The notes beneath the pieces were generated by a model. The model saw only the letters and a list, made by a program, of their open reading frames with translations. It did not search any database and was not told where the DNA came from. From assembly GCA_964431365.1 (NCBI GenBank), contig CAYSJJ010000001.1, forward strand, positions 33,214-97,213: DNA of 64,000 bases, written 5' to 3'. Origin of the DNA: an uncultured Geobacter sp. GTDB lineage: Bacteria; Desulfobacterota; Desulfuromonadia; Geobacterales; DSM-12255. Position numbers and translations under genes: made by a program. How positions within the stretch are numbered: position 1 is the first letter of the stretch; every line of letters begins with the position of its first letter. Shown here piece after piece: positions 17,655 through 61,998 of the stretch.

Positions 17655-17881
17655 GTGAGGGGGGAGCGCCCCGCTCCGCTCCGACTGCCGAGAATCGTGC
17701 CGGCGAGGACTGAGTGCCTCGTGGAGCGACTGTGCCCGAGTACCAGCCGCTGTAGGCGAAATGGAGCAGCCGGCCCTTCCTGTCTGAGCCCGTCAGGGCG
17801 AGTTGATGGGCCTGCGCGCAATGAGCCGTACAGCGGCGGTGCGAGCGGCACTCGGAGCGGAGCGGGGTGCTCGGTCCTCAC
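17655..17881 (-). repeat. Family B structured repeat, copy 1 (extended, ~36-bp terminal inverted repeats)
   Basis: Reverse-complement core CCGCTGTACGGCTCATT...AACTCGCCCTGACGGGCTCAGACA...CTCCATTTCGCCTACAGCGG; arms 17655-17690 and 17846-17881 are complementary. Confidence 0.9.
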
Positions 17882-17896
17882 CCCTCCTGAGCGCGG

Positions 17897-18226
17897 CTAC
17901 GCCCGGATCATCACCAGCAGCATCTTGAACCGGACCTTGGCCCGCAGGGAGTGGGGGTGGTTGGCCGGCATGATGACGAACTGCCCGGTCTCGACGGTCT
18001 GGGGAGTGCCGTCGATGGTGACCTCGCCGGTGCCGTCGACGACCTGGACAAAGGCGTCGTACGGGGCCGTGTGCTCGGAGAGCCCCTGCCCTTCGGCAAA
18101 GGCGAACAGGGTGATGGTGCCGATCTTCTTGTCGATGAGGGTCCGGCTCACCACCGACCCGGGCTGGTAGGCGACCAGGTCGGCCATGGTGATGGCCGTG
18201 CCGATCAGATCTTGGGTGTCGCTCAT
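17897..18226 (-). CDS. Cupin domain protein
   Basis: LFAFAEGQGLSEHTAPYDA and MPANHPHSL; AGGAG RBS. Confidence 0.92.
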   Translation of the reverse strand: MSDTQDLIGTAITMADLVAYQPGSVVSRTLIDKKIGTITLFAFAEGQGLSEHTAPYDAFVQVVDGTGEVTIDGTPQTVETGQFVIMPANHPHSLRAKVRFKMLLVMIRA

Positions 18227-18292
18227 GGGTGCTGCTCCTTTCAGTGATAACTCGTCCTTACAGCTAAAGCATACAGCACTTTCCTGCCAACG

Positions 18293-18310
18293 CCTTGATA
18301 CAGGTCAAGG
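18293..18310. promoter_or_regulatory. Fnr/HcpR-like box upstream of the cupin gene
   Basis: CC-TTGAT-ACAG-GTCAA-GG; centre lies about 41 bp from the start implied by a minus-strand TATGCT -10 at 18268-18273. Confidence 0.55.
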
Positions 18311-18382
18311 GAGCGCACCTCTTCCCATTTTCCCTCCCCTGTAGTAGTATCCACCCCCTCAAAACAACCGACAGGAGTCGTA

Positions 18383-20683
18383 ATGGCACTCACCAGCGAG
18401 CAGCACCGTGCAGTCATAGGATATATCGTCGAGGAGACCGGCCTGAAACCGTTCCAGGTGGAAGCGACCGTGGAACTGCTCCAGGAGGGGGGGACGGTCC
18501 CCTTCATCGCCCGCTACCGGAAGGAGCGGACCGGCGAACTGGACGAGGTGGAGATCCGGACCGTCGAAGAGCGCTTCACCTACTTCACCGAGCTTACCGA
18601 GCGGAAGGTCGCCATCCTCAACTCCATCGAGGAGCAGGGGAAGCTGACCCCTGAGCTCCGGGCGCGGATCGAGTCGACCCGCCAGAAGACCGAGCTGGAG
18701 GACCTCTACCTCCCGTACAAGCCGAAGCGCCGCACCAAGGCGATCATCGCCCGGGAGCGGGGGCTGGAGCCGCTGGCCGACCTGATGGCCGCCCAGGAGC
18801 TGACCGAAGGCACCCCGGAAGAGGCGGCAGCCCCCTTTGTCGATCCCGCCAAAGAGGTGCCGGACTCGGCAGCGGCCCTGGCCGGTGCCGGTCACATCCT
18901 GGCCGAGCGGCTGGCCGACGACGCCGATGCCCGGGCCTTTGTCCGGCGCATCACCGCCGACGAGGGGATCATCCGCTCCCGGGTGGCCACGGAGAAGAAG
19001 GGTGAGGTCACCAAGTTCGAGATGTACTACGACTACGAGGAGCCGCTGAAGAGCGTCCCCTCCCACCGGATGCTGGCCATGCGCCGTGGGGAGAAGGAGG
19101 AGGTCCTCTTCCTCGCCGTGGTCGCGCCGGTGGAGTCGATCCTGGCCGGGCTGAAGAGCCGGCTGGTCCGGGGGGAGAGCATCTTCCGAACGCTTCTGGA
19201 AGCGGTTGCCGAGGACGCCTACAAGCGGCTCATCGCCCCCTCCATCGAGGTGGAACTCCGGCTGGAGGCCAAGAACCGGGCCGACGAGGCGGCCATCAAG
19301 GTCTTTGCCCAGAACCTGCGGAACCTCCTCCTGGCGCCGCCGGCCGGGAGCAAGCGGGTCCTCGGCGTCGACCCGGGACTCCGGACCGGCTCCAAGCTGG
19401 CCGCCGTGGACGCTACCGGCCGCTTCCTGGAGCACGTCACCATCTATCCCCATACCGGCGAGGGGCGGGTCCCCCAGGCAAAGAAGGAACTCCTCCGCCT
19501 CATCGACGGCCACGCCCCGGAGATGATCGCCATCGGCAACGGCACTGCCAGCCGGGAGATGGAGCTGTTCGTAAAAGAGACCCTGGCCGAGGCCGGTCGG
19601 CACCTCCCGGTGGTGGTGGTGAGCGAGGCCGGCGCCAGCGTCTACTCGGCCTCGGAGATCGCCCGCGAGGAGTTCCCGGAGCTGGACCTGACCGTGCGTG
19701 GGGCGATCTCCATCGCCCGGCGGCTCCAGGACCCCCTGGCCGAACTGGTGAAGATCGACCCGAAGAGCATCGGGGTCGGCCAGTACCAGCACGACGTGAA
19801 CCAGTCCATGCTGAAGAAGGCGCTGGACGACGTGGTGGAGTCGTGCGTAAACTTCGTCGGGGTCGACCTGAACACCGCCTCCTGGGCGCTCCTCGCCTAT
19901 GTGGCCGGCGTCGGACCGGCCCTGGCCAAGGCGATCGTGAAGTTCCGTGACGACAAGGGGGCCTTCCCCTCCCGTCAGGCGCTCCTCTCGGTCCCCCGCT
20001 TCGGGGCCAAGGCGTTCGAACAGGCGGCCGGCTTCCTCCGGATCCGGGGGGGCGAACACCCCTTGGACAACACCGCCGTTCACCCGGAGCGCTACCAGGT
20101 GGTGGAGGCGATGGCCGCCGACCTCGGCAGCTCCCTGGCCCAGCTGGTGGCCGATCCGGCACTGGCAGGGAGGATCGATCTCAAGCGCTACGTCAGCGAG
20201 CAGGTCGGTCTCCCCACCCTGAAGGACATCCTGGAGGAGCTGAAGAAGCCGGGGCGCGACCCCCGGAGCCAGTTCCAGGCCGCCTCCTTCCGGGACGACA
20301 TCCGGGAGATCGCCGATCTCAAGGAGGGGATGATCCTCCAGGGGGTGGTAACCAACGTCACCGCCTTCGGCGCCTTCGTGGACATCGGGGTCCACCAGGA
20401 CGGGCTGGTGCACGTGAGCCACCTGGCCAACCGGTTCATCAAGGATCCGAACGACGCGGTGAAGGTGGGGGAGCTGGTACAGGTGAAGGTCCTGGCTGCC
20501 GACACGCAGCGGAAAAGGATCTCCCTCTCCATCAAAGAGGCGCTGCCGGGCGGGGGAGAGCAGCGTCCCCGCGGGGAGCGGCCGGCGCCGGCGGAACGGA
20601 AGCCAGCGGAGCCGAAGGCGCAGGGCGGCCTGGACCTGGGGGCCTTCGAACGGGCCGGTTTCCGGGTGCGGAAAAAGCCGTGA
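18383..20683 (+). CDS. tex: Tex family transcription accessory protein (S1 domain)
   Basis: TVPFIARYRKE, EDLYLPYKPKRRT, GVDPGLRTG, IGVGQYQHD and S1 motif FGAFVDIGVHQDGLVH. Confidence 0.97.
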   Translation: MALTSEQHRAVIGYIVEETGLKPFQVEATVELLQEGGTVPFIARYRKERTGELDEVEIRTVEERFTYFTELTERKVAILNSIEEQGKLTPELRARIESTRQKTELEDLYLPYKPKRRTKAIIARERGLEPLADLMAAQELTEGTPEEAAAPFVDPAKEVPDSAAALAGAGHILAERLADDADARAFVRRITADEGIIRSRVATEKKGEVTKFEMYYDYEEPLKSVPSHRMLAMRRGEKEEVLFLAVVAPVESILAGLKSRLVRGESIFRTLLEAVAEDAYKRLIAPSIEVELRLEAKNRADEAAIKVFAQNLRNLLLAPPAGSKRVLGVDPGLRTGSKLAAVDATGRFLEHVTIYPHTGEGRVPQAKKELLRLIDGHAPEMIAIGNGTASREMELFVKETLAEAGRHLPVVVVSEAGASVYSASEIAREEFPELDLTVRGAISIARRLQDPLAELVKIDPKSIGVGQYQHDVNQSMLKKALDDVVESCVNFVGVDLNTASWALLAYVAGVGPALAKAIVKFRDDKGAFPSRQALLSVPRFGAKAFEQAAGFLRIRGGEHPLDNTAVHPERYQVVEAMAADLGSSLAQLVADPALAGRIDLKRYVSEQVGLPTLKDILEELKKPGRDPRSQFQAASFRDDIREIADLKEGMILQGVVTNVTAFGAFVDIGVHQDGLVHVSHLANRFIKDPNDAVKVGELVQVKVLAADTQRKRISLSIKEALPGGGEQRPRGERPAPAERKPAEPKAQGGLDLGAFERAGFRVRKKP

Positions 20684-20699
20684 ACGCGTAAGGGTGGAG

Positions 20700-20882
20700 C
20701 CGTGACGGACGCCGCCCCATTTCGCTCGACGTGCTCTCGCACCGCCGCTGTACGGCTCATTTCGCTACCGGCCTGAAACTCGCCCTGACGGGCTCAGACA
20801 ATCAGGCCGGCGGCCGCTCCATTTCGCCTACAGCGGCTGGCGCTCGGGCACATCAGCTCAGTTGGCGCGGCGTCCGTCACGG
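20700..20882 (+). repeat. Family B structured repeat, copy 2
   Basis: Perfect 16-bp ends CCGTGACGGACGCCGC/GCGGCGTCCGTCACGG around the conserved core. Confidence 0.93.
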
Positions 20883-20905
20883 GTCAGGATAAGGTTAATG
20901 GGGGA

Positions 20906-21373
20906 ATGGATATGATCACGGTACTGAAGGACTTCGCCATCATCGTCGGCGGCCTGGTGACGATCTTCGCCTTTGTCAACGGCCTCCTGGAGTATCGCCG
21001 CCAGGGGGTGCAGAAGCGGGTTGAGCACTTCACCCTGCTCCGCCGGCGCCTGAAGGAGAACCCGGTCTTCAAGGAGATCTGCGCCATGATGTTCGCAGGC
21101 GACCCGGCCCTGGCGACCTTCGACGCCCAGGGGAAGCGAGACTTCATCGGCCTCCTGGAGGAGGTGGCCCTCTGGGTCAACTCCGGGCTGATCCGGCCGG
21201 AGCTGGCCCATTACATGTTCGGCTTCTACACGGTGAAGTGCCTGGAGAGCAAGGATTTCTGGGCCAATGTCACCCTGGACGACGTCTACTGGAACCTGTT
21301 CCACGATTTTGCCCGGGAGATGAAGGCGAAGGAGCAGGGGTTCGTCTATCGACGGGAGGCGCTGCGGTTCTAG
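20906..21373 (+). CDS. Hypothetical protein with an N-terminal TM helix (DUF4760-like)
   Basis: Host-like codon usage; hydrophobic N-terminus; LLEEVALWVNSGLI motif. Confidence 0.7.
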   Translation: MDMITVLKDFAIIVGGLVTIFAFVNGLLEYRRQGVQKRVEHFTLLRRRLKENPVFKEICAMMFAGDPALATFDAQGKRDFIGLLEEVALWVNSGLIRPELAHYMFGFYTVKCLESKDFWANVTLDDVYWNLFHDFAREMKAKEQGFVYRREALRF

Positions 21374-21441
21374 ACAAGCGGGGAGTCGAACGTGAAGTGT
21401 TCGGATGGAGTGCGGGGGATCTTCGCCGGGCCGCCAACGCC

Positions 21442-21735
21442 CTAGCTGCGGCGGAGACGTTCGTTCCGGTCGTTGACCGCCTTGATGATCATTTCCGCTT
21501 GCTCCGTCGTCAATCCTACCCCGGGTTTATTCCCCATCCAGTGGGTTATTTCGTCGCTCGGCGTGGCCAGCGGTTCCGGCAGGGGGGGACCGTTCACCTG
21601 TTTCCCGTTCACATAGAGCATCGCCTTGTATTCACCCTGATGGCGGACCAGGACAAATTTGGCCAGAGCTCCGTTGGAGAGGCGCTTCAGCAGCAGTTCC
21701 TTTTCAACTATCGGTTCATAATCGCGTAGGAGCAT
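21442..21735 (-). CDS. Hypothetical protein
   Basis: 97-aa ORF with globular-looking composition; GAGG upstream of the ATG. Confidence 0.65.
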   Translation of the reverse strand: MLLRDYEPIVEKELLLKRLSNGALAKFVLVRHQGEYKAMLYVNGKQVNGPPLPEPLATPSDEITHWMGNKPGVGLTTEQAEMIIKAVNDRNERLRRS

Positions 21736-22085
21736 GCAGATCCTCGGCCGTTTTCGAAAGTGACCTGTTCAGAAGGTATCAAAAAATCAGTACGTTTCAA
21801 GCGTAATGCAATTTTATAGCATTTCCGGGAAAGAAATAACAGAACAGAGTATGAAAAGGGCTGCCCGGGGAGGGTCCCCTTTCCCTGCATAAAGGGTGTC
21901 GGTCGATCCGATCGATTGCGGACGACCGGAAACAAAAATTTGTCCCCATGATATCAGTCCTTTGAATTTACACAACCTGTTGGCCGGCCACTGTCATTTT
22001 TGACAACGTGGATGAGCTCTATGCGGCCGTGGGGCGCGGCGTTGCCGGCTGAGCCCGGTCTTTCGGAAGGGGGTTGAGGCGCTGG

Positions 22086-22598
22086 ATGCACGAATTGACG
22101 TATTTGGCCGGCTACCCGGATAACGTAACCCGCCAGGTTGGCCACCTGATCGCAGAGAACCGGTTGGGGGCTCTCCTGTTGAAGAGATACCCCGCGCCCC
22201 ACGGCATCAGGACCGACCGGGCCCTGTACGATTTTGCCGTCAAGATCAAGAACGAATTCCTCCGCACTGCCGAGCCGCTCAGCAAGGTGGCCTACGACGG
22301 CAAGATCAACGTGATCCGGCACGCCCTGGGGCTGCATACCTTTGTCTCCAGGGTCCAGGGGGCGAAACTCAAGGCGAAGCATGAAATCAGGATTGCGGCG
22401 GTTTTCAAACAGGCGCCGCTGGAATTCCTGACCATGATCGTCGTCCACGAGCTGGCACACCTGAAGGAGCGGGAGCACAACAAGGCCTTTTACCAACTCT
22501 GCGAGCATATGGAGCCGGCCTACCATCAGCTGGAGTTCGACCTGCGGCTCTATCTGACCCATCTGGAGCTGGTCGGGGGGCTGTACGAGGGGAAATGA
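22086..22598 (+). CDS. YgjP-like (DUF45/M48) metallo-hydrolase
   Basis: VVHELAHLKEREHNKAFYQLC and QLEFDLRLYL motifs. Confidence 0.9.
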   Translation: MHELTYLAGYPDNVTRQVGHLIAENRLGALLLKRYPAPHGIRTDRALYDFAVKIKNEFLRTAEPLSKVAYDGKINVIRHALGLHTFVSRVQGAKLKAKHEIRIAAVFKQAPLEFLTMIVVHELAHLKEREHNKAFYQLCEHMEPAYHQLEFDLRLYLTHLELVGGLYEGK

Positions 22599-22611
22599 TG
22601 CGGGGCAGTCG

Positions 22612-22662
22612 ATCAAGGGCCAGTCTCAACCCCGTTGCGGAAGGTTGAGGCTGGCCCTTGAT
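22612..22662. terminator. Long hairpin between convergent genes
   Basis: ATCAAGGGCCAGTCTCAACC...GGTTGAGGCTGGCCCTTGAT; 20-bp stem with one G-T pair. Confidence 0.7.
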
Positions 22663-22666
22663 GTTG

Positions 22667-23578
22667 TTACGGGACGACGACGAACGTTCCGTTGCCGGCA
22701 GTGTCCGCCTCCACCGTGTGGCCGCCGCTGGTGAAGGTCAGGCGGGCCTTGGTGCCGTTGCTGCCGGTGAAGAGCAGCTGGCCGGAGGTCGGTGTGGCAT
22801 CCATGGTCGCCACCGTCAAGGGGGTCACCGTGCTGATGACCACATAGCCGTGGACCGGATCGTAATAGGTGCCGGTTACGGTGAGTGAGTTCCCCACCAG
22901 CGTCAGGGTGAAGTTCTTGATCCAGTAGGTGCGGCCGGAAGCAGAGTCGGTCAGCACGACCGTCATGGTCACGGTCTTGGTCGTGCCGGCGGTGCTGTAG
23001 GCCATGCTGCCGTCCATGGCAAAGGTTCTGCCGCCGCCGCTGCTGCCGGTCATGTTGCTCATGGTGATGCTCAGGCTGGAGAACGTGCCTGCTGCCTGAT
23101 TGTAGACACCGGAAAAGCCGATGGTACCGGAGATGGTGGCCGACGTGCTGGTCTCCCTGTATTGGCTGAAGGAGACCGTGCCGCTGAAGGAGCCTGCGGT
23201 CTGATCGTAATTAATGGAATAGGTGAACGAACCGCTGTAACCGTTGATGGTGGCCTGGGCGCTGGCGTCGACCGCTTTTGCGGACGACTTGGAGCCGCCG
23301 ACGATGGTCGTCGCGCTGTTTTCCAGTATGGTTGCCACCTCCTGCAGGAGGGCCTGCTGTCCGCTGCCGATGGTGGCCTCCTTGGCCAGGCCGGAAACGG
23401 CTGATGACACCTGGCTGCCGGAATAGGCGTCCTCCGACAGTGCCTTGGCATTGGACGTGGTTACGGTCGCCTGGGTCGTCACGCCGGTGTATGCCGCGGG
23501 GGTGCTGCCGGAGCCGCCGCCACCGCAGCCGGCCAGCAGCGTCAGTCCTGCAAGAATCGGAAACAATCTCTTGTACAT
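22667..23578 (-). CDS. Ser/Thr/Gly-rich beta-strand lipoprotein of unknown function
   Basis: Lipobox LLAGC followed by a GGGGSGS linker; GGAGG RBS. Confidence 0.85.
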   Translation of the reverse strand: MYKRLFPILAGLTLLAGCGGGGSGSTPAAYTGVTTQATVTTSNAKALSEDAYSGSQVSSAVSGLAKEATIGSGQQALLQEVATILENSATTIVGGSKSSAKAVDASAQATINGYSGSFTYSINYDQTAGSFSGTVSFSQYRETSTSATISGTIGFSGVYNQAAGTFSSLSITMSNMTGSSGGGRTFAMDGSMAYSTAGTTKTVTMTVVLTDSASGRTYWIKNFTLTLVGNSLTVTGTYYDPVHGYVVISTVTPLTVATMDATPTSGQLLFTGSNGTKARLTFTSGGHTVEADTAGNGTFVVVP

Positions 23579-23639
23579 AGTCCCTCCCTGAATATCTCCC
23601 TACGGGTAGTGTGGTGGCAGTCGGCCTGCCGGTGTCCCC

Positions 23640-24029
23640 TCATTCCTTCCTTTGAAGGGTGTAGAAAATGGATGGTGCCAGGGCCAGCCAGGCGAGAAAC
23701 AGCAGCCATACGCGCCCTGCAGCCACATTGTAGTCCTGGAAGAGCTGCTGCCATGGGCGATGCATGAGAAGTCTGCCCATGGCGAACTCAAAAGCAATGG
23801 TGAGCGATACCCAAACCAGGCCGATGGCGCGTGCATGGCGCCGTGACGATGGCGGCCAGCGCCGGATAATAAACCATATGAACGACCCTATGAGGAGTGA
23901 ACCAACCAGTGTGGATAGCTGATGAGCGCGGAGTTCCGGCATGTGCCTGCCGAAGGTCAACTGCCGGAGGGCGCCATTGGCTATTGCGAGGGCCAACATC
24001 GGGAACCATGCCACTATGTAACGAGTCAT
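23640..24029 (-). CDS. Hypothetical 4-TM membrane protein
   Basis: MTRYIVAWFPMLALAIANGALR...AFEF...DYNVAAGRVW; four hydrophobic segments. Confidence 0.75.
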   Translation of the reverse strand: MTRYIVAWFPMLALAIANGALRQLTFGRHMPELRAHQLSTLVGSLLIGSFIWFIIRRWPPSSRRHARAIGLVWVSLTIAFEFAMGRLLMHRPWQQLFQDYNVAAGRVWLLFLAWLALAPSIFYTLQRKE

Positions 24030-24151
24030 GCTCTGCGTCCCTGGTAGAGCAGCTCCTTCAGCAGGCCGAGCGCTCTGAGGGTGGCGTCCCTGCAACCCGG
24101 TCCCTGCCGGGGAAGCGCCGTAAAGAGTTCGTAGAAGTATTCCATATTCAT
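24026..24151 (-). pseudogene. Truncated class I SAM methyltransferase remnant (41 aa)
   Basis: Translated by hand: MNMEYFYELFTALPRQGPGCRDATLRALGLLKELLYQGRRA*. GGAG RBS present. PRQGPG resembles the N-terminus of a methyltransferase family; the SAM-binding motif is missing. Confidence 0.55.
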
Positions 24152-27834: not shown

Positions 27835-27905
27835 GATAAGCACAACGTTCTACGTTCAACGGCCCGAGTTGTCAACCCAGAACACGAACGTAAAACGAAA
27901 AGGTG

Positions 27906-28093
27906 AATCCGTGGCGAATGCCGCGCCACTGCGCTCCATGCGCTCGCACCGCCGCTGTACGGCTCATTCCGCTAGCGGCCTGTAACTCGTCCTGACGGGC
28001 TCAGACAGACAGGCCGCTCTAACGCTCCATTTCGCCTACAGCGGCTGGTGCTCGGGCAAAGTCGCTTCGTCGGCACGACATTCGTCACGGATT
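27906..28093 (+). repeat. Family B structured repeat, copy 3
   Basis: Ends AATCCGTGGCGAATGCCGCGCC/GGCACGACATTCGTCACGGATT plus the conserved core. Confidence 0.93.
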
Positions 28094-28094
28094 G

Positions 28095-28117
28095 ACTGAA
28101 CGCAGCACGCTGAACGC
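28095..28117. repeat. Heptamer array 3' of glgP
   Basis: ACTGAAC GCAGCAC GCTGAAC; an inverted counterpart lies at 30699-30733. Confidence 0.7.
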
Positions 28118-28119
28118 TT

Positions 28120-30733: not shown

Positions 30734-30756
30734 ACTAACGGGATCTGAAATAGTTG

Positions 30757-30876
30757 GGTTGCTCAAAAATGGTCAGATCGTCGCACCCGCAGCAAGCTTC
30801 GAGGGAGGCGTAGCGGCGCTACGCCGCACCGAGGGGCTTGCGAGGACGGCGGCGAGATGGCTGTTTTTCAGCAACC
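30757..30876 (-). repeat. Family A repeat, copy 2
   Basis: Nearly identical to 11075-11194; lies 4 bp after the stop codon of the response regulator. Confidence 0.95.
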
Positions 30877-30880
30877 TTTT

Positions 30881-33753: not shown

Positions 33754-33767
33754 TAGTATCCTATGGC

Positions 33768-33886
33768 GGTTGCTGAAAAACGGCCATCTCGCCGCCGTCC
33801 TCGCTCGCTTCCTTGTGCGGCGTAGCGATGCTACGCCTCCGCGGAGCTCGCTGCGGGTGCGACGATCTGACCATTTTTGAGCAACC
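33768..33886 (+). repeat. Family A repeat, copy 3
   Basis: GGTTGCTGAAAAACGGCCA...TGACCATTTTTGAGCAACC, in the divergent kinase/hypA region. Confidence 0.95.
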
Positions 33887-34033
33887 TCGGTGTTTCAGCA
33901 TCCTTAAAGCGGCGTCTGGCGGCGAAAGTATACACCACCCCCGGCGGGCAGACAAGCGGCATGGGGGGAGCAACGTATACAGTTCATTTCCGCCGTGGTT
34001 TCTGGTACGATGCCGCATCGGAAAGGGGCCAGC

Positions 34034-37834: not shown

Positions 37835-38922
37835 ATTACCAGGACGACTTCAGGAACCGGGAGCTGGTGCTGGGGCTGGCCGGGGAGCTGAAACGTCTGG
37901 TGGCGGGGAGCAGCCGGACCCTCACCTTCATGGAGGTCTGCGGCACCCATACCATGGCCATCTACCAGTTCGGCCTGCGCGGCCTCCTGCCGCCGCAGGT
38001 GCGGCTGATTTCCGGTCCCGGCTGCCCGGTCTGCGTCACGCCGGTGGGGTACGTGGACCAGGCGGTGGCCTACAGCAATCAGCCGGACACCATCGTCGCC
38101 ACCTTCGGCGACATGGTGCGGGTGCCTGGTTCGTCGTCGTCCCTCCTGGCCGAGCGGGCCAAAGGCGCCGACATCCGGATCGTCTACTCCCCCCTGGATG
38201 CCGTCGGACTGGCCGCGGCCAATCCGGGCAAGCGGGTGATCTTCCTCGGGGTCGGTTTCGAGACCACGGCGCCGACCATTGCCGGCAGCATCCTGACTGC
38301 CAGCGCCAAGGGGCTCGACAACTACTTTGTCCTGACCGCCCACAAGACCATGCCGGCACCGATGCGGGTCCTGTCGGCCGACCCGGAGCTGGCCCTGGAC
38401 GGCTACCTCTGCCCGGCCCACGTGAGCGCCATTGTCGGCGCCGACACCTACCGGTTCCTGGCCGACGAGTTCGGCCTCGCCTGCGTGGTCACCGGCTTCG
38501 AGCCGGCCGACGTGCTGCAGGGGGTGATCATGCTGGTCCGCCAGGTGCTGGCGGGGGAAAGCCGGGTGGAGATCCAGTACAGCCGGGTGGTTTCGTGGGA
38601 AGGGAACAGGAAGGCGCTTTCCGTCATGGGGGAGGTGCTCACCCCCTGCGATGCCGACTGGCGGGGGATCGGCACCATCCCCGGGAGCGGGCTGGCCATC
38701 AACGACCGGTATGCCTCGTTCGACCCGCTGCGGGTCATGCCGGTGAAGGTGGAGCCGCCCCGCGAGCCGTCAGGCTGCTGCTGCGGGGAGATCCTGAAGG
38801 GGAAGATCGCGCCGCTGGACTGCCCGCTGTTCGGCACCGTCTGCACGCCGGAGGAGCCGGTGGGTGCCTGCATGGTCTCCAGCGAGGGGACCTGCGCCGC
38901 AGCCTATAAATACGGACAGTGA
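37831..38922 (+). CDS. hypD: HypD
   Basis: MEVCGTH, GPGCPVC, GFETT, PAHVS and CMVSSEGTC. Confidence 0.97.
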   Translation: MNYQDDFRNRELVLGLAGELKRLVAGSSRTLTFMEVCGTHTMAIYQFGLRGLLPPQVRLISGPGCPVCVTPVGYVDQAVAYSNQPDTIVATFGDMVRVPGSSSSLLAERAKGADIRIVYSPLDAVGLAAANPGKRVIFLGVGFETTAPTIAGSILTASAKGLDNYFVLTAHKTMPAPMRVLSADPELALDGYLCPAHVSAIVGADTYRFLADEFGLACVVTGFEPADVLQGVIMLVRQVLAGESRVEIQYSRVVSWEGNRKALSVMGEVLTPCDADWRGIGTIPGSGLAINDRYASFDPLRVMPVKVEPPREPSGCCCGEILKGKIAPLDCPLFGTVCTPEEPVGACMVSSEGTCAAAYKYGQ

Positions 38923-38923
38923 C

Positions 38924-39063
38924 GGTTGCTGAAAAACAGCCATCTCGCCGCCGTCCTCGCAAGCCGCCTTGTGCGGCGTAGCGCTGTTTATGCCCGATGT
39001 GTGGGTACTACGCCTCCGCGGGGCTTTCTGCGGGTGCGACGATCTGGCTATTTTTGATCAACC
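38924..39063 (+). repeat. Family A repeat, copy 4, with a 21-bp insertion in the central loop
   Basis: Same ends as the other copies; extra TTTATGCCCGATGTGTGGGTA at 38987-39007. Confidence 0.92.
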
Positions 39064-39100
39064 TGAGATTTAGGGCTGGGGCACGCTGAAAGAGACCTCA

Positions 39101-39124
39101 GCGTTTCTCTGCGTACTCTGCGGT
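39101..39124. repeat. CTCTGCG-type repeat half
   Basis: GCGTTTCTCTGCGTACTCTGCGGT; reverse complement (one mismatch) at 48424-48447. Confidence 0.75.
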
Positions 39125-39140
39125 GTAAGTTTTTCGCAAT

Positions 39141-46553: not shown

Positions 46554-46555
46554 TC

Positions 46556-46675
46556 GGTTGCTGAAAAACAGCCATCTCGCCGCCGTCCTCGCAAGCTCCT
46601 CAGTGCGGCGTAGCGCTGCTACGCCACACTCGAAGCTTTCTGCGGGTGCGACGATCTGACTATTTTTGAGCAACC
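46556..46675 (+). repeat. Family A repeat, copy 5
   Basis: Begins 2 bp after the mqnE TAG; same ends and central hairpin. Confidence 0.95.
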
Positions 46676-46700
46676 TCAAAAACCCGTTTAGGACTTAACC

Positions 46701-48423: not shown

Positions 48424-48553
48424 ACCGCAGAGTACGCAGAGTAACGCAGTATAAATCAGGCGGTTAAGGTTCATGAGCGTTTCACCATTTGGAGACAAGA
48501 GATTCTTCTCTGTCCAATTTGGTTTCTCTGCGAACCTCTGCGTTCTCTGCGGT
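48424..48553. repeat. CGCAGAG/CTCTGCG inverted-repeat element
   Basis: ACCGCAGAGTACGCAGAGTAACGCAG ... CTCTGCGAACCTCTGCGTTCTCTGCGGT. Confidence 0.8.
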
Positions 48554-48604
48554 TCAACTGCCGTTTATAGGTTTGAAGGTTATGCACCTAAGAAGGGAAC
48601 GATT

Positions 48605-49738: not shown

Positions 49739-49745
49739 CGGATGG

Positions 49746-49784
49746 ATCCGTGAGCCCTGGAACCACGGTGCAGGACTCACGGAT
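49746..49784. repeat. Short hairpin with family B termini
   Basis: ATCCGTGAGCCCTG-11 nt-CAGGACTCACGGAT between convergent genes. Confidence 0.7.
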
Positions 49785-49789
49785 TCAGG

Positions 49790-55016: not shown

Positions 55017-55041
55017 CATCCAACGTTCGTACCGATCGTTC

Positions 55042-55157: not shown

Positions 55158-56552
55158 ATGTTTCAGTCTGTTTCCCGTTTTCTGGCCCTGTCTCTCGCAA
55201 TCCTCCTGGGGTGCCTGGCCGCAGGCGAAGAGAGCTTCGCCAAGAGCGGCCCCCCCGACTTCGTAGAGCTGGCCAAAAAATTGAAGCCGACCGTGGTCAA
55301 CATCGGTACGGCCAAGACCATCAAGCCGCAGCGGCGTTTCAGGCAGCCGCAGAACCAGTTTGGTAACGATCCTTTTCAGGACTTCTTCGACCGGTTCTTC
55401 GAGGAACAGCAGCCCCATGCCTTCAAGCAGCGGAGCCTCGGCTCGGGATTCCTGATCGAGGGGGGATACATCATCACCAATAACCACGTGGTGGCGGGTG
55501 CCGACGAGATCAAGGTCAAGCTGGACGACAACCGTGAGTTCAAGGCCGAGGTAAAGGGGCTGGACGAGAAGCTGGATCTGGCCCTGCTGAAGATCGACGC
55601 CAAAGGTGACCTGCCGGCCGCCCGGCTCGGTAATAGCGACAGCATCGAGGTAGGCGAGTGGGTGATGGCTATCGGCAACCCGTTCGGTCTGGCCGAAACG
55701 GTCACCGCCGGGATCGTCAGCGCCAAGGGGCGGGTCATCGGGAGCGGCCCCTATGACGACTTCATCCAGACCGACGCCTCCATCAACCCCGGGAATTCGG
55801 GTGGCCCCCTGTTCAATGCCAAGGGGGAGGTGATCGGCATAAACACGGCAATCATCGCCGGGGGGCAGGGGATCGGCTTCGCCATCCCGGTGAACATGGC
55901 CAAGTCGATCATCCCGCAGCTCAAGGACAAGGGGAAGGTGACGCGGGGGTGGCTCGGGGTCTCCATTCAGCCGGTGACTCCGGACCTGGCCCAGTCGTTC
56001 GGGCTTTCCGCCGAGAAGGGGGCGCTGGTGGCCGAGGTCCTGCCCGACAGCCCGGCCGAGAAGGCCGGCATCAAGGCGGGGGACATCATCACCGAATTCG
56101 ACGGCAAGCAGGTTAACGAGATGAGCGAACTCCCCCGCATGGTGGCCGCCACCACGGTGGGGAAAAAGGTGACCCTCAAGCTGCTCCGGGAAGGGGCGGC
56201 GGAGGAGCTCCCGGTTACGATCGAGAAGCTGAAGGACGGCGATGACGGAGAAAAGAGCGGCGCAGCCGCGGACAAGCTGGGGATCACGGTGCAGGCGCTG
56301 ACCAAGGAGTTGGCGGCCCGCTACCGGACCAAGGAGACCACCGGCGTGGTGGTTGCCGATCTCTCGGTCGACGGTGCCGCACAGGAGGCGGGGATTGCCC
56401 GGGGTGACGTGATCAGGGAGATCAACGGCCGGAAGATCGCCACAGTCGGCGACTATGAAAAGGCGATAGCGGCCCGGAAGAAGGGAGCTGCGATCCGGTT
56501 CCTGGTGAAGCGCGGCAATTCGTCCCTCTACATCGCCTTCAAGGTCGACTAG
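55158..56552 (+). CDS. degP: DegP/DegQ (HtrA) serine protease with two PDZ domains
   Basis: Signal peptide; GSGF, TNNHVV, DLAL, QTDASINPGNSGGPL and GWLGV. Confidence 0.95.
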   Translation: MFQSVSRFLALSLAILLGCLAAGEESFAKSGPPDFVELAKKLKPTVVNIGTAKTIKPQRRFRQPQNQFGNDPFQDFFDRFFEEQQPHAFKQRSLGSGFLIEGGYIITNNHVVAGADEIKVKLDDNREFKAEVKGLDEKLDLALLKIDAKGDLPAARLGNSDSIEVGEWVMAIGNPFGLAETVTAGIVSAKGRVIGSGPYDDFIQTDASINPGNSGGPLFNAKGEVIGINTAIIAGGQGIGFAIPVNMAKSIIPQLKDKGKVTRGWLGVSIQPVTPDLAQSFGLSAEKGALVAEVLPDSPAEKAGIKAGDIITEFDGKQVNEMSELPRMVAATTVGKKVTLKLLREGAAEELPVTIEKLKDGDDGEKSGAAADKLGITVQALTKELAARYRTKETTGVVVADLSVDGAAQEAGIARGDVIREINGRKIATVGDYEKAIAARKKGAAIRFLVKRGNSSLYIAFKVD

Positions 56553-56554
56553 TC

Positions 56555-56673
56555 GGTTGCTGAAAAACAGCCATCTCGCCGCCGTCCTCGCAAGCTACCT
56601 TGTGCGGCGTAGCGCTGCTACGCCTCCGCGGAGCCTGCTGCGGGTGCGACGATCTGACTATTTTTGAGCAACC
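56555..56673 (+). repeat. Family A repeat, copy 6
   Basis: Begins 2 bp after the degP TAG (same CTAGTC flank as copy 5). Confidence 0.95.
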
Positions 56674-56713
56674 TGGTTACAATAATTCATGAAAAGAAAC
56701 CGGGAGGGAAGTC

Positions 56714-58210
56714 ATGAAATGCACAGCAGTTGTAGCCGACCCGACAGCCTATCCCTGCCCGGCCCTGGTGCTCGGCTGTTTCGAGAATATGGCAGAGACC
56801 CCGTTCCTGGCGGAGTTGGACGCTGCGCTTCACGGTGCCGTTTCGGCGCTCTATGCCCAGAAGGAGTTTACCGGCGGCCTGAACAAGACCAAGATCGTCC
56901 ATACCTGCGCCAGGATACCGGCGGAGCGGCTGCTCCTGGTCGGTCTAGGGAAGGCCGGAGAGCTGACCGCAGAGAGGCTCCGCCAGGGAGCGGGCTCGGC
57001 TGCCCAGGCCCTGCGGGGAGCGCGCCTGACAACTGCCGGGTCGCTGCTCCACCTGGCCGGACTGGCCGCGGACGAGGCTGTGTCGGCGTCCGTGGTCGGC
57101 CTGCAGCTGGGGGGCTACGCCTTCAACCGTTACAAGACCGGCAGGGACGAGGCAAAGCCGCTGGCCGGGATCACGCTCCTGATGACGGATAAGAAAGGGG
57201 CCCAGGCGGCTAAGAGCGTCATCGGGGAGGCCGAAACCCTCTGCCACGGCGTGCTGCTCGCCCGCGATCTGGTTTCTCTCCCCGGCAACGAAGCGACCCC
57301 AGCCTATATCGCTGGAAGGGCGCAGGAGCTGGCCGGTCTCGCCGGGGTCAGCTGCGCCGTGCTGGAACAGGCAGAGTTGGAGGAGCTGGGGATGGGGGGG
57401 GTCCTGGCGGTCGGCAAGGGGTCGAAACACTCTCCCCGGTTCGTAGTGCTGGAGTATCAGGGGGGGCGCCCTGGCGAGCGGCCGGTGATCCTGGTGGGGA
57501 AAGGGGTCACCTTCGACTCGGGGGGGATCTCACTCAAGCCGCGTGAGGGGATGGAGCGGATGAAGGACGACATGGCCGGCGCTGCGGCGGTCCTCGGCAC
57601 GGTACAGGCGGCCGCCGGACTGGGGCTGCCGGTCAACGTGGTGGGGCTCGCCCCGCTGGTGGAGAACATGCCGGACGGCGGCTCGTACAAGCCGGGGGAC
57701 ATCGTGACCACCATGGCCGGGAAGACGGTCGAGATCAACAACACCGATGCGGAGGGGCGGATGATCCTCTGCGACGCGCTGCATTACGCCCAACAATACA
57801 AGCCTGCCGTGCTGATCGACCTAGCTACCCTTACCGGCGCCTGTCTGGTGGCCCTCGGCGACCAGGCGACCGGGATGATGGGGACGGACGAAGCCTTGAA
57901 GCGGACCCTGGCCAGGGCCGGCGAGGCCACCGGCGAGCGGGTCTGGGAGCTGCCGTTGTGGGATGAGTACGGGGAGGCGATGAAGAGCGACGTTGCCGAC
58001 CTGAAGAACGCCGGCGGCCCCCATGCCGGCACCATCACCGCCGCCTGGTTCCTGAAGCAGTTCAGCGGCAAGGCCAAGTGGGTGCATCTGGACATCGCCG
58101 GTACCGCCTGGGAGGAGAAGGGGCGGCACTACCTCCCGAAAGGGGCGACCGGCGTCGGCGTACGGCTGTTGATCGAGTATCTGTCCGGGGTGGCGGGAAA
58201 ACGTGGTTGA
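56714..58210 (+). CDS. pepA: Leucyl aminopeptidase (M17)
   Basis: VGKGVTFDSGG, MKDDMAG, NTDAEGR, ATLTGA and HLDIAG. Confidence 0.96.
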   Translation: MKCTAVVADPTAYPCPALVLGCFENMAETPFLAELDAALHGAVSALYAQKEFTGGLNKTKIVHTCARIPAERLLLVGLGKAGELTAERLRQGAGSAAQALRGARLTTAGSLLHLAGLAADEAVSASVVGLQLGGYAFNRYKTGRDEAKPLAGITLLMTDKKGAQAAKSVIGEAETLCHGVLLARDLVSLPGNEATPAYIAGRAQELAGLAGVSCAVLEQAELEELGMGGVLAVGKGSKHSPRFVVLEYQGGRPGERPVILVGKGVTFDSGGISLKPREGMERMKDDMAGAAAVLGTVQAAAGLGLPVNVVGLAPLVENMPDGGSYKPGDIVTTMAGKTVEINNTDAEGRMILCDALHYAQQYKPAVLIDLATLTGACLVALGDQATGMMGTDEALKRTLARAGEATGERVWELPLWDEYGEAMKSDVADLKNAGGPHAGTITAAWFLKQFSGKAKWVHLDIAGTAWEEKGRHYLPKGATGVGVRLLIEYLSGVAGKRG

Positions 58211-58379
58211 AAGGTTAGCCATTGAGGCCCGTTTCCGATCACCACCAGCGATTTGGCTTCTGATAAGAGTCCACGTTGATTGCAAACCTCTCAGACGTCA
58301 TGTGAGTCTTGTTGTCAATCGGCCGCGGGAATCGCTGGAGTTGCGCCCCACCAGCCATCCATGCCTCGTGGGATATAGG

Positions 58380-58919
58380 TTACTCGATCAGCAGGAACGC
58401 GTACCGGTTCATCTCTTCCTCGAAGCCGGCCAGGACCTCGATGGGGTAGCCGAACTTGGCTGCCGTGGCGAAGACGTCGACCCCCATCCCTTCCGGGGTG
58501 GGGCGGGCCAGGTTGCGGTTGTGGCAGGCGGTACGGGTCCGGGCGCACTCCCTGCACAGCTTGCAGTTGTCCATGAAGAGCAGAAAGGCCTTCTGGTAGC
58601 CTGCGAGAAAGACCTCCCGTTCCAGTTCCAGCAACTGCATGTTGACCCCCCGTGTCCAGGCGTGGCGCTCCTCGGGATCGTCGAACCGCTTGCTGAAGCG
58701 GAAGATGACGCCGAGCCGGTATTCCCGGAAGAATTCGCGACACTCGGCCACCGGTGGAGTGTTCGGCGGGCAGGAGGCGTTACGACCGTAGTCGCTGCAG
58801 CCGAACATGCATTTCATCCGTACCCACTGGCCAACCACGATCTCGGCCGGATCGATCCAGCGGAACTCCTTCCCACCTTTCACCTGAAACAGCCTCTGCA
58901 GTAGCGCCTGATCCGCCAT
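58380..58919 (-). CDS. DUF2284-like Cys-rich metal-binding protein
   Basis: VRMKCMFGC..YG..SCPP, CKLCREC and RPTPEGMGVDVF. Confidence 0.8.
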   Translation of the reverse strand: MADQALLQRLFQVKGGKEFRWIDPAEIVVGQWVRMKCMFGCSDYGRNASCPPNTPPVAECREFFREYRLGVIFRFSKRFDDPEERHAWTRGVNMQLLELEREVFLAGYQKAFLLFMDNCKLCRECARTRTACHNRNLARPTPEGMGVDVFATAAKFGYPIEVLAGFEEEMNRYAFLLIE

Positions 58920-59145
58920 ATATGCTCCCCGTCAGTTCTCTCGCATGAACCGCAAAGACCCCCGCGATTCCTCTTGGGCAAACCTACACGTCGGTTCCGG
59001 CGCTGTCAAGGAACCGGATACCCGCTCCCTGTAGCGGTATCTCTCCGCAGCCGGTTCCCGGCGAATCGACAGAGCAAATCCTGACTATGTGACGTATTCT
59101 GTCCTGCATGCGTGTTCCTATGGAGAAAAACGCAGGAGGTGCGCC

Positions 59146-59412
59146 GTGATTTATTTGACCAACGATGTCTACGATCAGGCAGTCTATTGCGAACTGCACT
59201 CGCAGAAGCCCCGGCGAGTCGCGGGCGAGATGGAGCAACGCTTTACCGGTGTATTGGGGAACGGCGTGAGCGAAGTGCCGGTGACGGTACGGAGGTGGCG
59301 CGATTACGTGGAAGTTGTGTTCGGCGCCCCGAGCATGCTCTTTTCCTGTGTGGACGAGCGTCTCGTTCGAAGCCTGGTTGGTGATGCGGTGCGGGAACTG
59401 GCCGCCGCTTGA
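59146..59412 (+). CDS. Hypothetical protein
   Basis: AGGAGG RBS before GTG 59146; 88 aa. Confidence 0.7.
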   Translation: MIYLTNDVYDQAVYCELHSQKPRRVAGEMEQRFTGVLGNGVSEVPVTVRRWRDYVEVVFGAPSMLFSCVDERLVRSLVGDAVRELAAA

Positions 59413-59682
59413 TGCCGGGGCGCGCCGCGAATTGGCGTGGCTGGTGACAGGCTGTCCTGTTCCCCTCTGCGATTGTGTCCAGCAGGGTCGGTGTCTTGTT
59501 TAGGTATTGAACAGACGTCATCGGCCATTGGCCGGCCTCAAACGGGGAGGCGTCGTTCGGTGATGCTAACCGTCTGAAATGACTTGTGGCTATATTAGCT
59601 GTAAATAATGCCAGTGGCTGATTTTCTGGCACTGATCTAGTATTCAAGTGAAGAAAGGATTCGACTGGTCAGGAGGTGCTGG

Positions 59683-60039
59683 ATGAATCAGTATGCAACC
59701 GCTATTTTGACGCTGACTGCTGCCATGGTCTGTTTCATGGTGATGCGTATCTACGGCGACTGGCTCCGGATTGCCGCCGCAAGGGAACAGGGTACGCCGG
59801 AGGAGCTGGACGGCATGCGGGAATCCATCTGTCGCTGGCAGATGCGCCACCTGTCCGGTGTGGTGGTCTCGGTCGTCCTGGTTGCTGGCATCTGTTTCCT
59901 GCCGGTGTTATCCTCCTGCGCCAGTTTTGCCGGTGCGATTGTCGCCTACGCGGTTATTTCCTGCTGCCTGGCGGCTACTGAAACGGTATTGATGCAGCGG
60001 TTGACAACGGTAACGGTCCGGTTGGTTGCCAGAGACTGA
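59683..60039 (+). CDS. Hypothetical membrane protein
   Basis: AGGAGG RBS; three hydrophobic segments. Confidence 0.7.
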   Translation: MNQYATAILTLTAAMVCFMVMRIYGDWLRIAAAREQGTPEELDGMRESICRWQMRHLSGVVVSVVLVAGICFLPVLSSCASFAGAIVAYAVISCCLAATETVLMQRLTTVTVRLVARD

Positions 60040-60062
60040 CCGTTTTCATCCAGCGCGGTTTG

Positions 60063-60107
60063 AAAAAAAAAGGGGGGGGAGCACCATGCTCCCCCCCCTT
60101 TTTTTTT
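60063..60107. terminator. Perfect bidirectional terminator
   Basis: A9-G8-AGCA-CCA-TGCT-C8-T9 between convergent genes. Confidence 0.9.
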
Positions 60108-60134
60108 GATCTGCTGATGCTGAAGACGATCCCC

Positions 60135-60566
60135 TCAATAGTGCGGATACCCGGGGCGCCTGCGCCGGATGGCGTGCTCGATGAGAAAAAAGGCGCGGAT
60201 AAAGAGGACACCCTTGCGCCATAGGTCCACGAGGTCGATGAGGAAATGGAAGAGGAGGCCGACAAGCAGCGGGAGCAGCAGCGGATAGAGCAGGGCCAAT
60301 ATCCCGACCAGCAGGAAAAAATCGATCGTATGGAAAAGGCAGAGGCCCACATAGGGGATCGTATGCTCGATATACTGCAGGTCGGCGAAATAGCGGAACA
60401 TCCCTCGGACGTCGAAGCGGCCGGTCCGTACGACGTAGAGGAAGTAGTGGTCAACGTCGATGAGGACACCGCCGACGGCGAAGAGGAGTAGTTCAGAACC
60501 TTTCAGCCATGGCGAAAGGGCTGCCGCGGCGACACCGGTAGCTGCCAGATGACGGGTAAGGGTCAT
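60135..60566 (-). CDS. Putative membrane-bound metal-dependent hydrolase-like protein
   Basis: H near the N-terminus, IDVDH, FHT and HFLID within hydrophobic helices (YdjM-like pattern). Confidence 0.65.
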   Translation of the reverse strand: MTLTRHLAATGVAAAALSPWLKGSELLLFAVGGVLIDVDHYFLYVVRTGRFDVRGMFRYFADLQYIEHTIPYVGLCLFHTIDFFLLVGILALLYPLLLPLLVGLLFHFLIDLVDLWRKGVLFIRAFFLIEHAIRRRRPGYPHY

Positions 60567-60665
60567 GGCTCCCACACGTTAACAGTAGCGAACAGCTGCG
60601 GGAACTGCATCCCCGCAGCTGTCGAGAGCGGTCGAAGATGAGGTTGCAGCCGGGTCCAGGTACGT

Positions 60666-61670
60666 CTAGACGCGGAACGGCTCAACCGCTGCTTCGGAAA
60701 AATCGTTGACCACGGTGAGGAGTTCTTCCCTCCCATCCACCGTAGCTTTCACGGCGCAGTCGGCACCGGCCTCGGCCTTGGTGTAGCGGAGAAGGATCTT
60801 CGCGGCCAGGGAGATGCTTTCCCGTTCCTGGCGTCCCATGACCACCCCCAGCGGACTGCTGCCGTCAACCCAGCGCAGGGAGGTCTCACCCGGCTGTGTA
60901 GCCGCTTCCAGGAGGTTGTTGTCCGCTTCGCTCCGGCCGATGAGCACCTTGGTGCGCTCGCCGAGGCGGAAATGGCGGGCGATCTTCAACATCCGGAAAT
61001 CCCTCGGGTTCAGGTCGTCGCTGTGGTCGAACACGTCTCTGACCTTGGGGACGAAGGAGGTCTCGGTCAACAGGCAGCCTCCGGCCGGGCAGGGGTAGTT
61101 CTTCACGTCCAGTTCGTCAGCCAGCTGGATCTGGTCTTTGCGTGACCTCCCCTTGAAGGCGAGGAGCTTGCTCCGGTCGACCCACCCCTCGCGCTCAGGG
61201 ATGGTCGGCTCGAAAAACTGTGCCGAAAGCGGGCGGAGCAGCAGCCCTTCCAGACCGCTTTCCCGTTCGATCACCCGCAGCGTGTCGCGTCGCTGGCTCA
61301 TGGGGCGCTGTCCCAGCACCTCGCCGGTGATGACGAAATCGGCCCCACTCTCTTCCATATACTCCTTGGCCCTGCGGAGCAGGTAGATGCGGCAGTCGAT
61401 GCAGGGGTTCAGCCCCTTGCCGTAGCCGTGGCGGGGGCGCCTGACGACCTCCAGGTAGTCGACTCCCTTGTGCATGACCTTGATCGGGATGCCGAACTCT
61501 TCGGCGACGCGGATCGCTTCGGATTTGCAGCCGGCGTTCTTGCCGGTGCAGGTGCAGAACGGGGAGGTGAAATTGAGGGCTTCCACGGCGATTCCCTGGT
61601 CGAGCATGACCTTGACCGCAAGCGTGGAGTCGAGCCCGCCGGAAAGGAGGGCGAGGGCCTTGCGCTGCAT
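60666..61670 (-). CDS. ThiI/MnmA-like PP-loop tRNA sulfurtransferase (no THUMP domain)
   Basis: LLSGGLDS, NPCIDC, TGEVLGQRPMSQ, LRPLSA and PAGGC. Confidence 0.85.
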   Translation of the reverse strand: MQRKALALLSGGLDSTLAVKVMLDQGIAVEALNFTSPFCTCTGKNAGCKSEAIRVAEEFGIPIKVMHKGVDYLEVVRRPRHGYGKGLNPCIDCRIYLLRRAKEYMEESGADFVITGEVLGQRPMSQRRDTLRVIERESGLEGLLLRPLSAQFFEPTIPEREGWVDRSKLLAFKGRSRKDQIQLADELDVKNYPCPAGGCLLTETSFVPKVRDVFDHSDDLNPRDFRMLKIARHFRLGERTKVLIGRSEADNNLLEAATQPGETSLRWVDGSSPLGVVMGRQERESISLAAKILLRYTKAEAGADCAVKATVDGREELLTVVNDFSEAAVEPFRV

Positions 61671-61810
61671 GGTGTCTCCTGTGGTCCCATGGTGCAGCCT
61701 ATCCGGGGAGGGCGCGCCACACTACGGTACCGATGTGATGGGTGAAACAGAGAGTATCAATAAGGGGACCGGCACGGAAAGTCAACGGGTTTCTTGTTGC
61801 CGTGGCCGGA

Positions 61811-61998
61811 ATCCGTGACGGGTACCACGCCGCTTCGCTCCGACTGCCACTCGCACCACCGCTGTACGGCTCATTACGCTACCGGCCTGAAACTCGCCCT
61901 GACGGGCTCAGACAATCAGGCCGGTGGCCGCTCCATTTCGCCTACAGCGGCAGGTGCTCAGGCAGAGTCGCTCCGACGGCGCGGTACCCGTCACGGAT
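61811..61998 (+). repeat. Family B structured repeat, copy 4
   Basis: Ends ATCCGTGACGGGTACCACGCCG/CGGCGCGGTACCCGTCACGGAT plus the conserved core; abuts the azlD stop. Confidence 0.93.

What the first reader, a model, noticed from the sequence alone, without database searches (positions are those of the whole stretch)
17655..61998. Family B: ~185-bp dispersed element with covarying stems and invariant loops (candidate structured RNA or ssDNA element)
Seen: four copies (17655-17881 reversed, 20700-20882, 27906-28093, 61811-61998). Near-invariant segments are CCGCTGTACGGCTCATT, AACTCGYCCTGACGGGCTCAGACA and GCTCCATTTCGCCTACAGCGG. The stems change sequence yet stay complementary. Outer stem: CCGTGACGGACGCCGC vs ATCCGTGACGGGTACC vs AATCCGTGGCGAATG, each matched by its own right arm. 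Inner stem: CCGGCCTGA/TCAGGCCGG vs GCGGCCTGT/ACAGGCCGC vs GGCCC/GGGCC. The result is a nested rod with conserved internal loops and a GCCC-TGAC-GGGC tip. Orientation is not tied to the neighbouring mRNA (sense after tex, antisense after glgP and azlD). Inference: selection on a folded single-stranded form, either a multicopy ncRNA or a REPIN-like substrate of a HUH/RAYT-type enzyme. This is the best candidate here for an undescribed system.
Basis: partly seen in the sequence, partly recalled or inferred. Interest (0 to 1): 0.75.

Follow-up and report, generated by a model that had tools for sequence, protein, structure and literature searches.

The report
Mini-transposon with shared DNA-hairpin core
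The four repeats are old copies of a roughly 198-base gene-less jumping element (a MITE) whose ends and target duplications match IS1380-family transposons; its folded interior, which likely works as single-stranded DNA, also occurs between the ends of an unrelated transposon family, and what it does is still untested.

Summary
In detail: four copies, nested rod, covarying stems, frozen loops; about 55 copies genome-wide. The true ends lie about 8 nt further out. Copies with intact ends are 196-200 bp (34 of 35), carry CC...GG terminal repeats and a 5-bp nTnAn duplication that is single at empty sites. Autonomous IS1380 elements in relatives have the same ends, so this is a MITE, not a REPIN or a shown ncRNA. 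Two copies were listed in 2009 as unexplained Geobacter repeats. The unusual part is the core. The same core sits between IS4-family ends (249 bp, 9-bp duplication) and a third end type. It flips in place and stays intact after the ends decay. No IS1380 gene was found in this assembly. The scan has noted MITE cores with such traits on other DNA; I found no paper describing this core. Verdict: new variant of a known kind.

The parts
17646..17891 (+). Copy 1: full core copy (about 17696-17891; folding strand +) plus an extra inverted outer arm (about 17646-17705); between convergent genes; ends eroded
   Evidence: (I25); the orthologous site is occupied in the opposite orientation in G001 and G003 and by an internally deleted copy in G002
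20693..20889 (-). Copy 2, after the stop of the S1-domain (tex-like) gene; folding strand -; ends eroded
   Evidence: site empty in G001-G004
27902..28097 (-). Copy 3, after the alpha-glucan phosphorylase gene; folding strand -; ends eroded
   Evidence: site empty in G001-G003 and G005
61806..62003 (-). Copy 4, overlapping the stop of the gene after azlC; folding strand -; ends eroded
   Evidence: no copy after the orthologous stop in G003
61896..61907 (-). Tip hairpin of copy 4: 4-bp stem with a GTCA (GNNA) loop on the folding strand, next to tandem G.A pairs
49741..49789 (.). 49-bp core-less hairpin with the same subfamily-1 ends (deleted derivative or sister mini-element)

Best explanation
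This is a gene-less MITE of about 198 bp, likely moved in trans by IS1380-family DDE transposases, whose interior likely folds as a single-stranded or cruciform DNA rod on one fixed strand. Shown: CC...GG terminal repeats; a 5-bp (once 6-bp) duplication of an nTnAn target, single at empty sites; the same ends on autonomous IS1380 elements. The target motif covers TAA/TGA stops, which would explain the position just after stop codons (inferred). Shown: after insertion, copies invert in place, lose internal segments between short direct repeats, differ in core subtype at one shared site and lose their ends, while the loops stay fixed. Inferred: the rod forms when DNA is single-stranded or supercoiled. 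That would bring the two ends of a very short element together for the transposase, and would drive the flips and arm-to-arm copying by template switching. Exchange between copies would keep the core uniform. The same core between IS4-type ends suggests a portable helper module rather than a remnant of one IS. My odds: MITE of IS1380 type 0.9; selected fold mainly at DNA level 0.55; synapsis-helper role 0.3.
For: Duplication: 22 of 143 copies perfect and 34 of 143 at 4/5 or better at the (8,8) offset, against 0-6 perfect at 24 other offsets. By end state: 17 of 35 copies with intact ends perfect, 0 of 87 with eroded ends. Shuffled-half null gives 0-1 hits of the (5 bp, CC) class against 15 observed. 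Three filled/empty pairs show one target copy at the empty site, two of them cleanly. 19 of 22 perfect targets are nTnAn. Partners: L279 (G001, same genus; NF033539 298 bits, cut-off 180) has one end identical over 13 nt to subfamily 1; L278 (G045; 150 bits, below cut-off, only IS1380 scores well) matches subfamily 2 over 16 of 17 nt; both have 5-bp duplications. Copy number varies among congeners: 54, 12 and 10 model hits. Fixed folding strand: isolated G.T on the reverse strand outnumbers the alternative 64:21 in this genome and 107:40 elsewhere, the same in both gene contexts (36:10, 22:7). Tips are GNA or GNNA in 48 of 51 copies here and 86 of 110 elsewhere; only 3 of 27 and 4 of 29 tetraloops are RNA-type GNRA. 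GCGN(N)AGC occurs 49 times on the folding strand and 3 times on the other in 55 copies. PMC13037366 (passages) reports these mini-hairpins as far more stable in DNA than RNA. Shared sites: 11 inverted, 8 same orientation. IS4-type carriers: 10 copies with CA..TG ends, 249-252 bp and 9-bp duplications; autonomous IS4 element L498 has those ends and a 9-bp duplication.
Against: No IS1380 gene was found in this assembly (93% complete, 157 contigs) or in copy-rich G002. None of the four window copies keeps a duplication, and only 1 of 40 scorable copies here has a perfect one, so MITE status of these copies rests on homology to intact ones. The autonomous elements share only the ends: no core in 22 IS1380 loci. 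Transposition was not tested. Tandem G.A and G.T pairs also suit RNA. Related copies are not independent, and one column supplies 32 of 80 G.T cells in the fitted count. A role in synapsis does not explain why the core stays intact after the ends have decayed; that needs gene conversion or host-level selection, neither measured. Two of the 11 inverted and 2 of the 8 same-orientation sites rest on one flank with the other unmapped, two more inverted ones have the second flank elsewhere, and one of those (L205) pairs different subfamilies.
Confidence: 0.75

Rival explanations
1. A MITE whose core is a small RNA cargo, transcribed from the folding strand by its own promoter, or acting in read-through transcripts as reported for other MITE hairpins.
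For: Fixed folding strand, G.U-type wobbles, purine-rich loops and strong covariation. Core intact after end decay: four loop motifs exact in 27-28 of 32 copies, while terminal bases 1-3 match in about a third. Nearly all copies lie 3' of a gene. PMC3184786 (passages) says many such repeats are transcribed and may act as RNA.
Against: Tips avoid GNRA and follow the DNA rule. Both orientations occur in co-directional gaps, 26 against 16, p = 0.16, and flip freely at one site, so an mRNA-level role cannot need one strand. No Rfam family.
Confidence: 0.2
2. No current function: stems covary through template switching between arms, and loops stay uniform through gene conversion among copies of an old MITE.
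For: In-place inversions, precise internal deletions and a core-subtype difference at one orthologous site show such recombination happens. Ends have decayed in this genome.
Against: Template switching should erase the mismatched loops, yet loop columns are 88-99% conserved against 58-69% for the two main helices, across several phyla and three end types. It does not predict the strand bias or the tip rule.
Confidence: 0.15
3. The core is a REP/REPIN-like substrate of a HUH (RAYT/Y1) enzyme, later captured by or inserted into MITE ends.
For: DNA-type tips and strand polarity; the same core inside unrelated ends; MITEs with the IS4-type ends carry other hairpin cargo in other genomes (L545-L549).
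Against: No copy near 31 Y1 loci; no recurrent neighbour gene family among 157 loci. I saw no recurring free core with its own boundaries, though many distant copies have ends I could not type.
Confidence: 0.1

Closest known systems
IS1380-family insertion sequences (ISEcp1, ISPme1; here L279, L278)
   Same: CC...GG terminal repeats, 5-bp AT-rich duplication with an nTnAn tendency in the G008 copies; ends match the two subfamilies
   Different: No transposase gene; 198 bp; a conserved folded interior absent from the autonomous elements examined
Gmet_R0064 / Gmet_R0066 (Aklujkar et al. 2009, PMC2700814, Fig. S8h; passages and the first part of that supplement read)
   Same: Same family, written on the folding strand; noted there as also present in G. 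sulfurreducens
   Different: Listed as miscellaneous multicopy sequences of about 150-160 nt, with no ends, duplication, structure or mechanism in what I read
Structured bacterial MITEs and repeats: Correia/NEMIS, ERIC, RUP, Nezha, Chunjie, bcr1 (review PMC3184786, passages read)
   Same: Intergenic, 100-250 bp, terminal repeats and duplications, stable fold; bcr1 has compensatory changes and 5-bp duplications; Nezha's partner IS lies in another species
   Different: No shared core across IS families, DNA-type tips or in-place flips in the passages read. Chunjie (G. uraniireducens) is A+T rich with 21-bp ends and 9-bp duplications; its primary paper was not available, so a link to the IS4-type carriers is unchecked
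IS4-family elements (NF033592; L498, L511)
   Same: Their ends and 9-bp duplication (seen at L498) match the 249-bp carriers of the same core
   Different: Not the ends of the window's copies
DNA mini-hairpins d(GCGNAGC) / d(GCGNNAGC) (review PMC13037366, passages read)
   Same: GNA and GNNA loops closed by C-G on the folding strand
   Different: Described there at phage and plasmid origins and the N4 promoter, not inside MITEs
REP/REPIN with RAYT (partly recalled; PMC4690160 passages read)
   Same: Extragenic, near stop codons, single-strand hairpins
   Different: No linked Y1 gene found; terminal repeats and duplications point to DDE transposition

Membership tests
MITE | Short, no transposase gene, multicopy | tested here: met
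   about 198 bp, 55 copies, none inside a called gene
MITE | Terminal inverted repeats | tested here: met
   Family consensus from 143 copies; eroded in the window's copies
MITE | Target-site duplication, single at empty sites | tested here: met
   (on relatives' copies; 1 of 40 perfect in this genome)
MITE | Presence/absence polymorphism among relatives | tested here: met
   22 of 72 sister-genome copies map to sites scored empty here (one holds a deleted copy, two hold another repeat); 19 occupied; 31 not scorable
IS1380-derived MITE | Ends shared with an autonomous IS1380 element; 4-6 bp duplication | tested here: met
   L279 and L278
IS1380-derived MITE | Mobilised in trans by that transposase | not testable with these tools
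   No IS1380 gene found in this assembly
IS1380-derived MITE | Interior is a deletion remnant of the parent IS | tested here: not met
   No core in 22 IS1380 loci; the core also lies between IS4 ends
REPIN/RAYT | Copies flank a Y1 (RAYT) gene | tested here: not met
   0 of 31 Y1 loci, a sample of about 270 matches listed
Structured ncRNA | Covarying secondary structure | tested here: met
Structured ncRNA | Discrete transcript from one strand | tested here: inconclusive
   Only contigs of other organisms were available
Structured ncRNA | Match to an Rfam family | tested here: not met

The most novel reading that the evidence does not exclude
The core is a portable single-stranded-DNA module (G.A-zipped rod with a GNA mini-hairpin tip) that MITEs of unrelated transposase families have recruited, either because it pre-pairs the two ends of an element too short to loop or because a host or mobile-element protein reads it. 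A related tip in rods with yet other ends (L606, L639, L672) would make it a general design rule for bacterial mini-transposons.
Probability: 0.3. Interest if true: 0.75.

Novelty: new variant of a known kind. Interest (0 to 1): 0.45.

Why it matters
It gives a mechanism to a Geobacter repeat listed since 2009 and explains its position after stop codons by a target motif. It also offers a clean test of why many bacterial MITEs keep a folded interior: one core, at least two transposase families, a known folding strand, natural flips and deletions, and cloneable partner transposases in relatives. If the fold acts in DNA, many covarying intergenic 'ncRNA candidates' may be MITE cores.

Tried and rejected
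Rfam at gathering score on the window gave two tRNAs only; at E up to 10 on copy 4, only generic hairpin hits far below cut-off. Y1/RAYT link: none (the few tblastn hits came from a loose HxH filter and were not followed up). Shared neighbour gene: clusters were the element's own pseudo-frames or housekeeping paralogs. Strict core pattern in viral contigs: 0; plasmids by blastn: 0. Expression: 13 runs listed, 4 laid, all contigs, mostly of other organisms; the same-sample run laid nothing, so no verdict. Kink-turn reading of the tip loop considered by eye and dropped: bulge and flanking pairs do not fit the recalled consensus. Autonomous IS4 partner inside the three genomes with type-B copies: no intact one seen; it was found in G171 and G418 instead. 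Partner for the third end type (8-bp duplication; L097, similar ends at L463) not identified. tblastn hits of 'L297' came from a different long frame of that locus than the transposase matches and are not counted. In one search the automatic left end of copy 4 was mis-anchored; 61806 comes. Literature: 8 full-text searches, including six core motifs as text (0 papers), found no description of this core. The Chunjie paper was not held. The Geobacter supplement text search failed because letters are spaced; part 2 of Fig. S8 and the G. bemidjiensis and P. carbinolicus supplements were not read and may list further copies.

Full report
Observation. A profile built from them finds 65 hits in the 4.0-Mb assembly, 55 with the tip motif and 49 full length, in several subfamilies. 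An exact core pattern occurs in 20 of 61 related genomes, this one included, with 0 hits for the reversed control, and in 5 of 401 genomes drawn across the phylum. A collection scan stopped at 106 stretches, among them records titled Nitrospirota, Nitrospinota, Smithellaceae and Desulfobacca. The spread is wide and patchy.

Structure. Copy 4 folds at z about -10 on either strand. RNAalifold on 62 MAFFT-aligned copies gives 24 core pairs, 14 with two-sided changes. On 107 model-aligned copies 19 of 24 pairs do, and both controls fall far below (the alignment is fitted). Loop columns are 88-99% conserved and the two main helices 58-69%. On that strand the loops are purine-rich with tandem G.A arrangements. 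The tip is GNA or GNNA in 48 of 51 scorable copies here (4 unscored) and 86 of 110 elsewhere, while GNRA makes up only 3 of 27 and 4 of 29 tetraloops. The mini-hairpin word GCGN(N)AGC occurs 49 times on that strand and 3 times on the other. The review PMC13037366 (passages) gives such loops as much more stable in DNA than RNA. This leans to a DNA-level fold but does not prove it.

Context. With a home-made gene caller, none of 55 copies lies inside a gene; of 47 with both neighbours, 42 are in co-directional gaps, 5 in convergent and 0 in divergent gaps, against 14% divergent gaps by count (p about 7e-4). In 44 of 51 copies an end lies within 26 nt of an upstream stop; 4 had none scored. No gene family recurs beside the element, and no copy lies near 31 Y1 loci.

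What it is. Anchoring 143 of 165 copies shows consensus ends 8 nt outside the outer-stem anchor, beginning CC and ending GG, with a 5-bp direct repeat just outside: 22 perfect against 0-6 at other offsets. The repeat is perfect in 17 of 35 copies with intact ends and 0 of 87 with eroded ends. At three G002 sites the sister genomes carry one copy of the target, cleanly at two sites (one with a 6-bp repeat) and with divergence at the third; a fourth site queried was not read out. Nineteen of 22 perfect targets are nTnAn, and at two of the three sites the target contains the upstream gene's TAA. This offers a simple reason for the link to stop codons; loss of harmful insertions elsewhere would add to it (inference). 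The resemblance to ISEcp1 ends was first recalled, then tested. IS1380 transposases occur in 8 of 61 relatives, and two carry ends that match the two subfamilies, each with a 5-bp repeat: L279 in the same genus and L278 in the same order. None was found in this assembly. The window's own copies have lost their ends and duplications, so they are old.

Fate of copies. Of 72 copies from three congeners, 19 map to sites also occupied here, 11 inverted and 8 not; 22 map to sites scored empty; 31 could not be placed with both flanks or at all. At the C89/L221 site the outer arms and flanks are kept and the core is reversed; at the C26 site orthologous copies differ in core subtype; several copies have deletions between the short direct repeats of the loops. 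Window copy 1, with its extra inverted arm, sits at a site where two relatives hold the opposite orientation. In this genome terminal bases 1-3 match the consensus in about a third of 32 copies, while four loop motifs are exact in 27-28 of 32. Gene conversion or host-level selection must account for that; I could not separate them.

The unusual point. The same core, exact for the 45-nt pattern and found by the model at E about 1e-14 to 1e-11, lies between different ends in other bacteria: 10 copies of 249-252 bp with CA..TG ends and 9-bp repeats, and one of 245 bp with an 8-bp repeat (L097). An autonomous element with the first of these ends and a 9-bp repeat encodes an IS4-family transposase above the curated cut-off (L498). 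Other MITEs with those IS4 ends carry different hairpin cargo or a variant of this core (L545-L551). A looser tip pattern in viral contigs gave 120 stretches, mostly chance; 5 had a closing stem, and some of these are long rods with other ends and a GC-GNA-GC tip. So the core behaves as a module separable from the ends.

Mechanism. Most likely an IS1380 transposase, supplied in trans when such an IS passes through the lineage, copies the element into nTnAn sites (inferred from ends and duplications). The interior likely extrudes or folds when single-stranded, one strand forming a G.A-zipped rod with a mini-hairpin tip. That would bring the ends of a 198-bp element together and promote template switching, which gives flips and compensated stems (inferred; untested). 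An RNA cargo, a neutral history and a HUH substrate remain as rivals, in that order.

Prior knowledge. The family was listed as Gmet_R0064 and Gmet_R0066 in PMC2700814 (Fig. S8h, compared by eye) with no structure or mechanism. MITEs with stable folds are well known (PMC3184786, passages), and trans-mobilisation of MITEs is standard (PMC9330008, passages). Eight literature searches found no account of this core, of its sharing between IS families or of its DNA-type tips; subscription papers and some supplements were not seen. Earlier notes of this scan report IS1380-type MITEs with conserved or flippable cores, and cores shared by unrelated MITEs, in other genomes; none matched this sequence, and I did not test them. 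Verdict: a real feature, a new variant of a known kind; interest 0.45.

Noticed in passing
window 11059-11196, 30741-30878, 33767-33898, 38923-39066, 46555-46677, 56554-56675: A second dispersed repeat family of about 120-140 bp. Its central palindrome resembles the one given in the legend of Fig. S1 of PMC2700814 (24 'predicted short RNA elements'); compared by legend only.
   Followed up: no
window about 38918-39132 versus L229 and L248: This gap holds the second repeat family here, while G002 and G001 hold the family-B element at the same place: two different repeats at one site.
   Followed up: partly
window 48553-48571 and 49741-49789: A subfamily-2-type end joined to short CGCAGAG-type repeats, and a 49-bp core-less hairpin with subfamily-1 ends; about a dozen such end-like sites lie away from core copies in the genome.
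   Followed up: partly
L545-L549 (G065, G395, G418): MITEs with the same IS4-type ends but REP-like G/C-run hairpins inside instead of this core.
   Followed up: no
L550:50-300, L551:55-470: IS4-ended elements with a variant tip of the same core; L550 is hit by the model at E 1e-11, L551 is not.
   Followed up: partly
L606, L639, L672, L569 (viral contigs, around position 300): Long imperfect rods with other terminal repeats and a related tip with a GNA loop, suggesting the tip module extends beyond this family.
   Followed up: partly
G000:C26:4167-4375, G000:C9:13030-13242, G000:C69:56-130, L254, L268: Copies with 20-60-nt insertions next to the tip; origin unknown.
   Followed up: no
L274:1305-2960: An IS1380-family element with ISEcp1-like ends (name recalled) in a genome of the same order, G049.
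   Followed up: no
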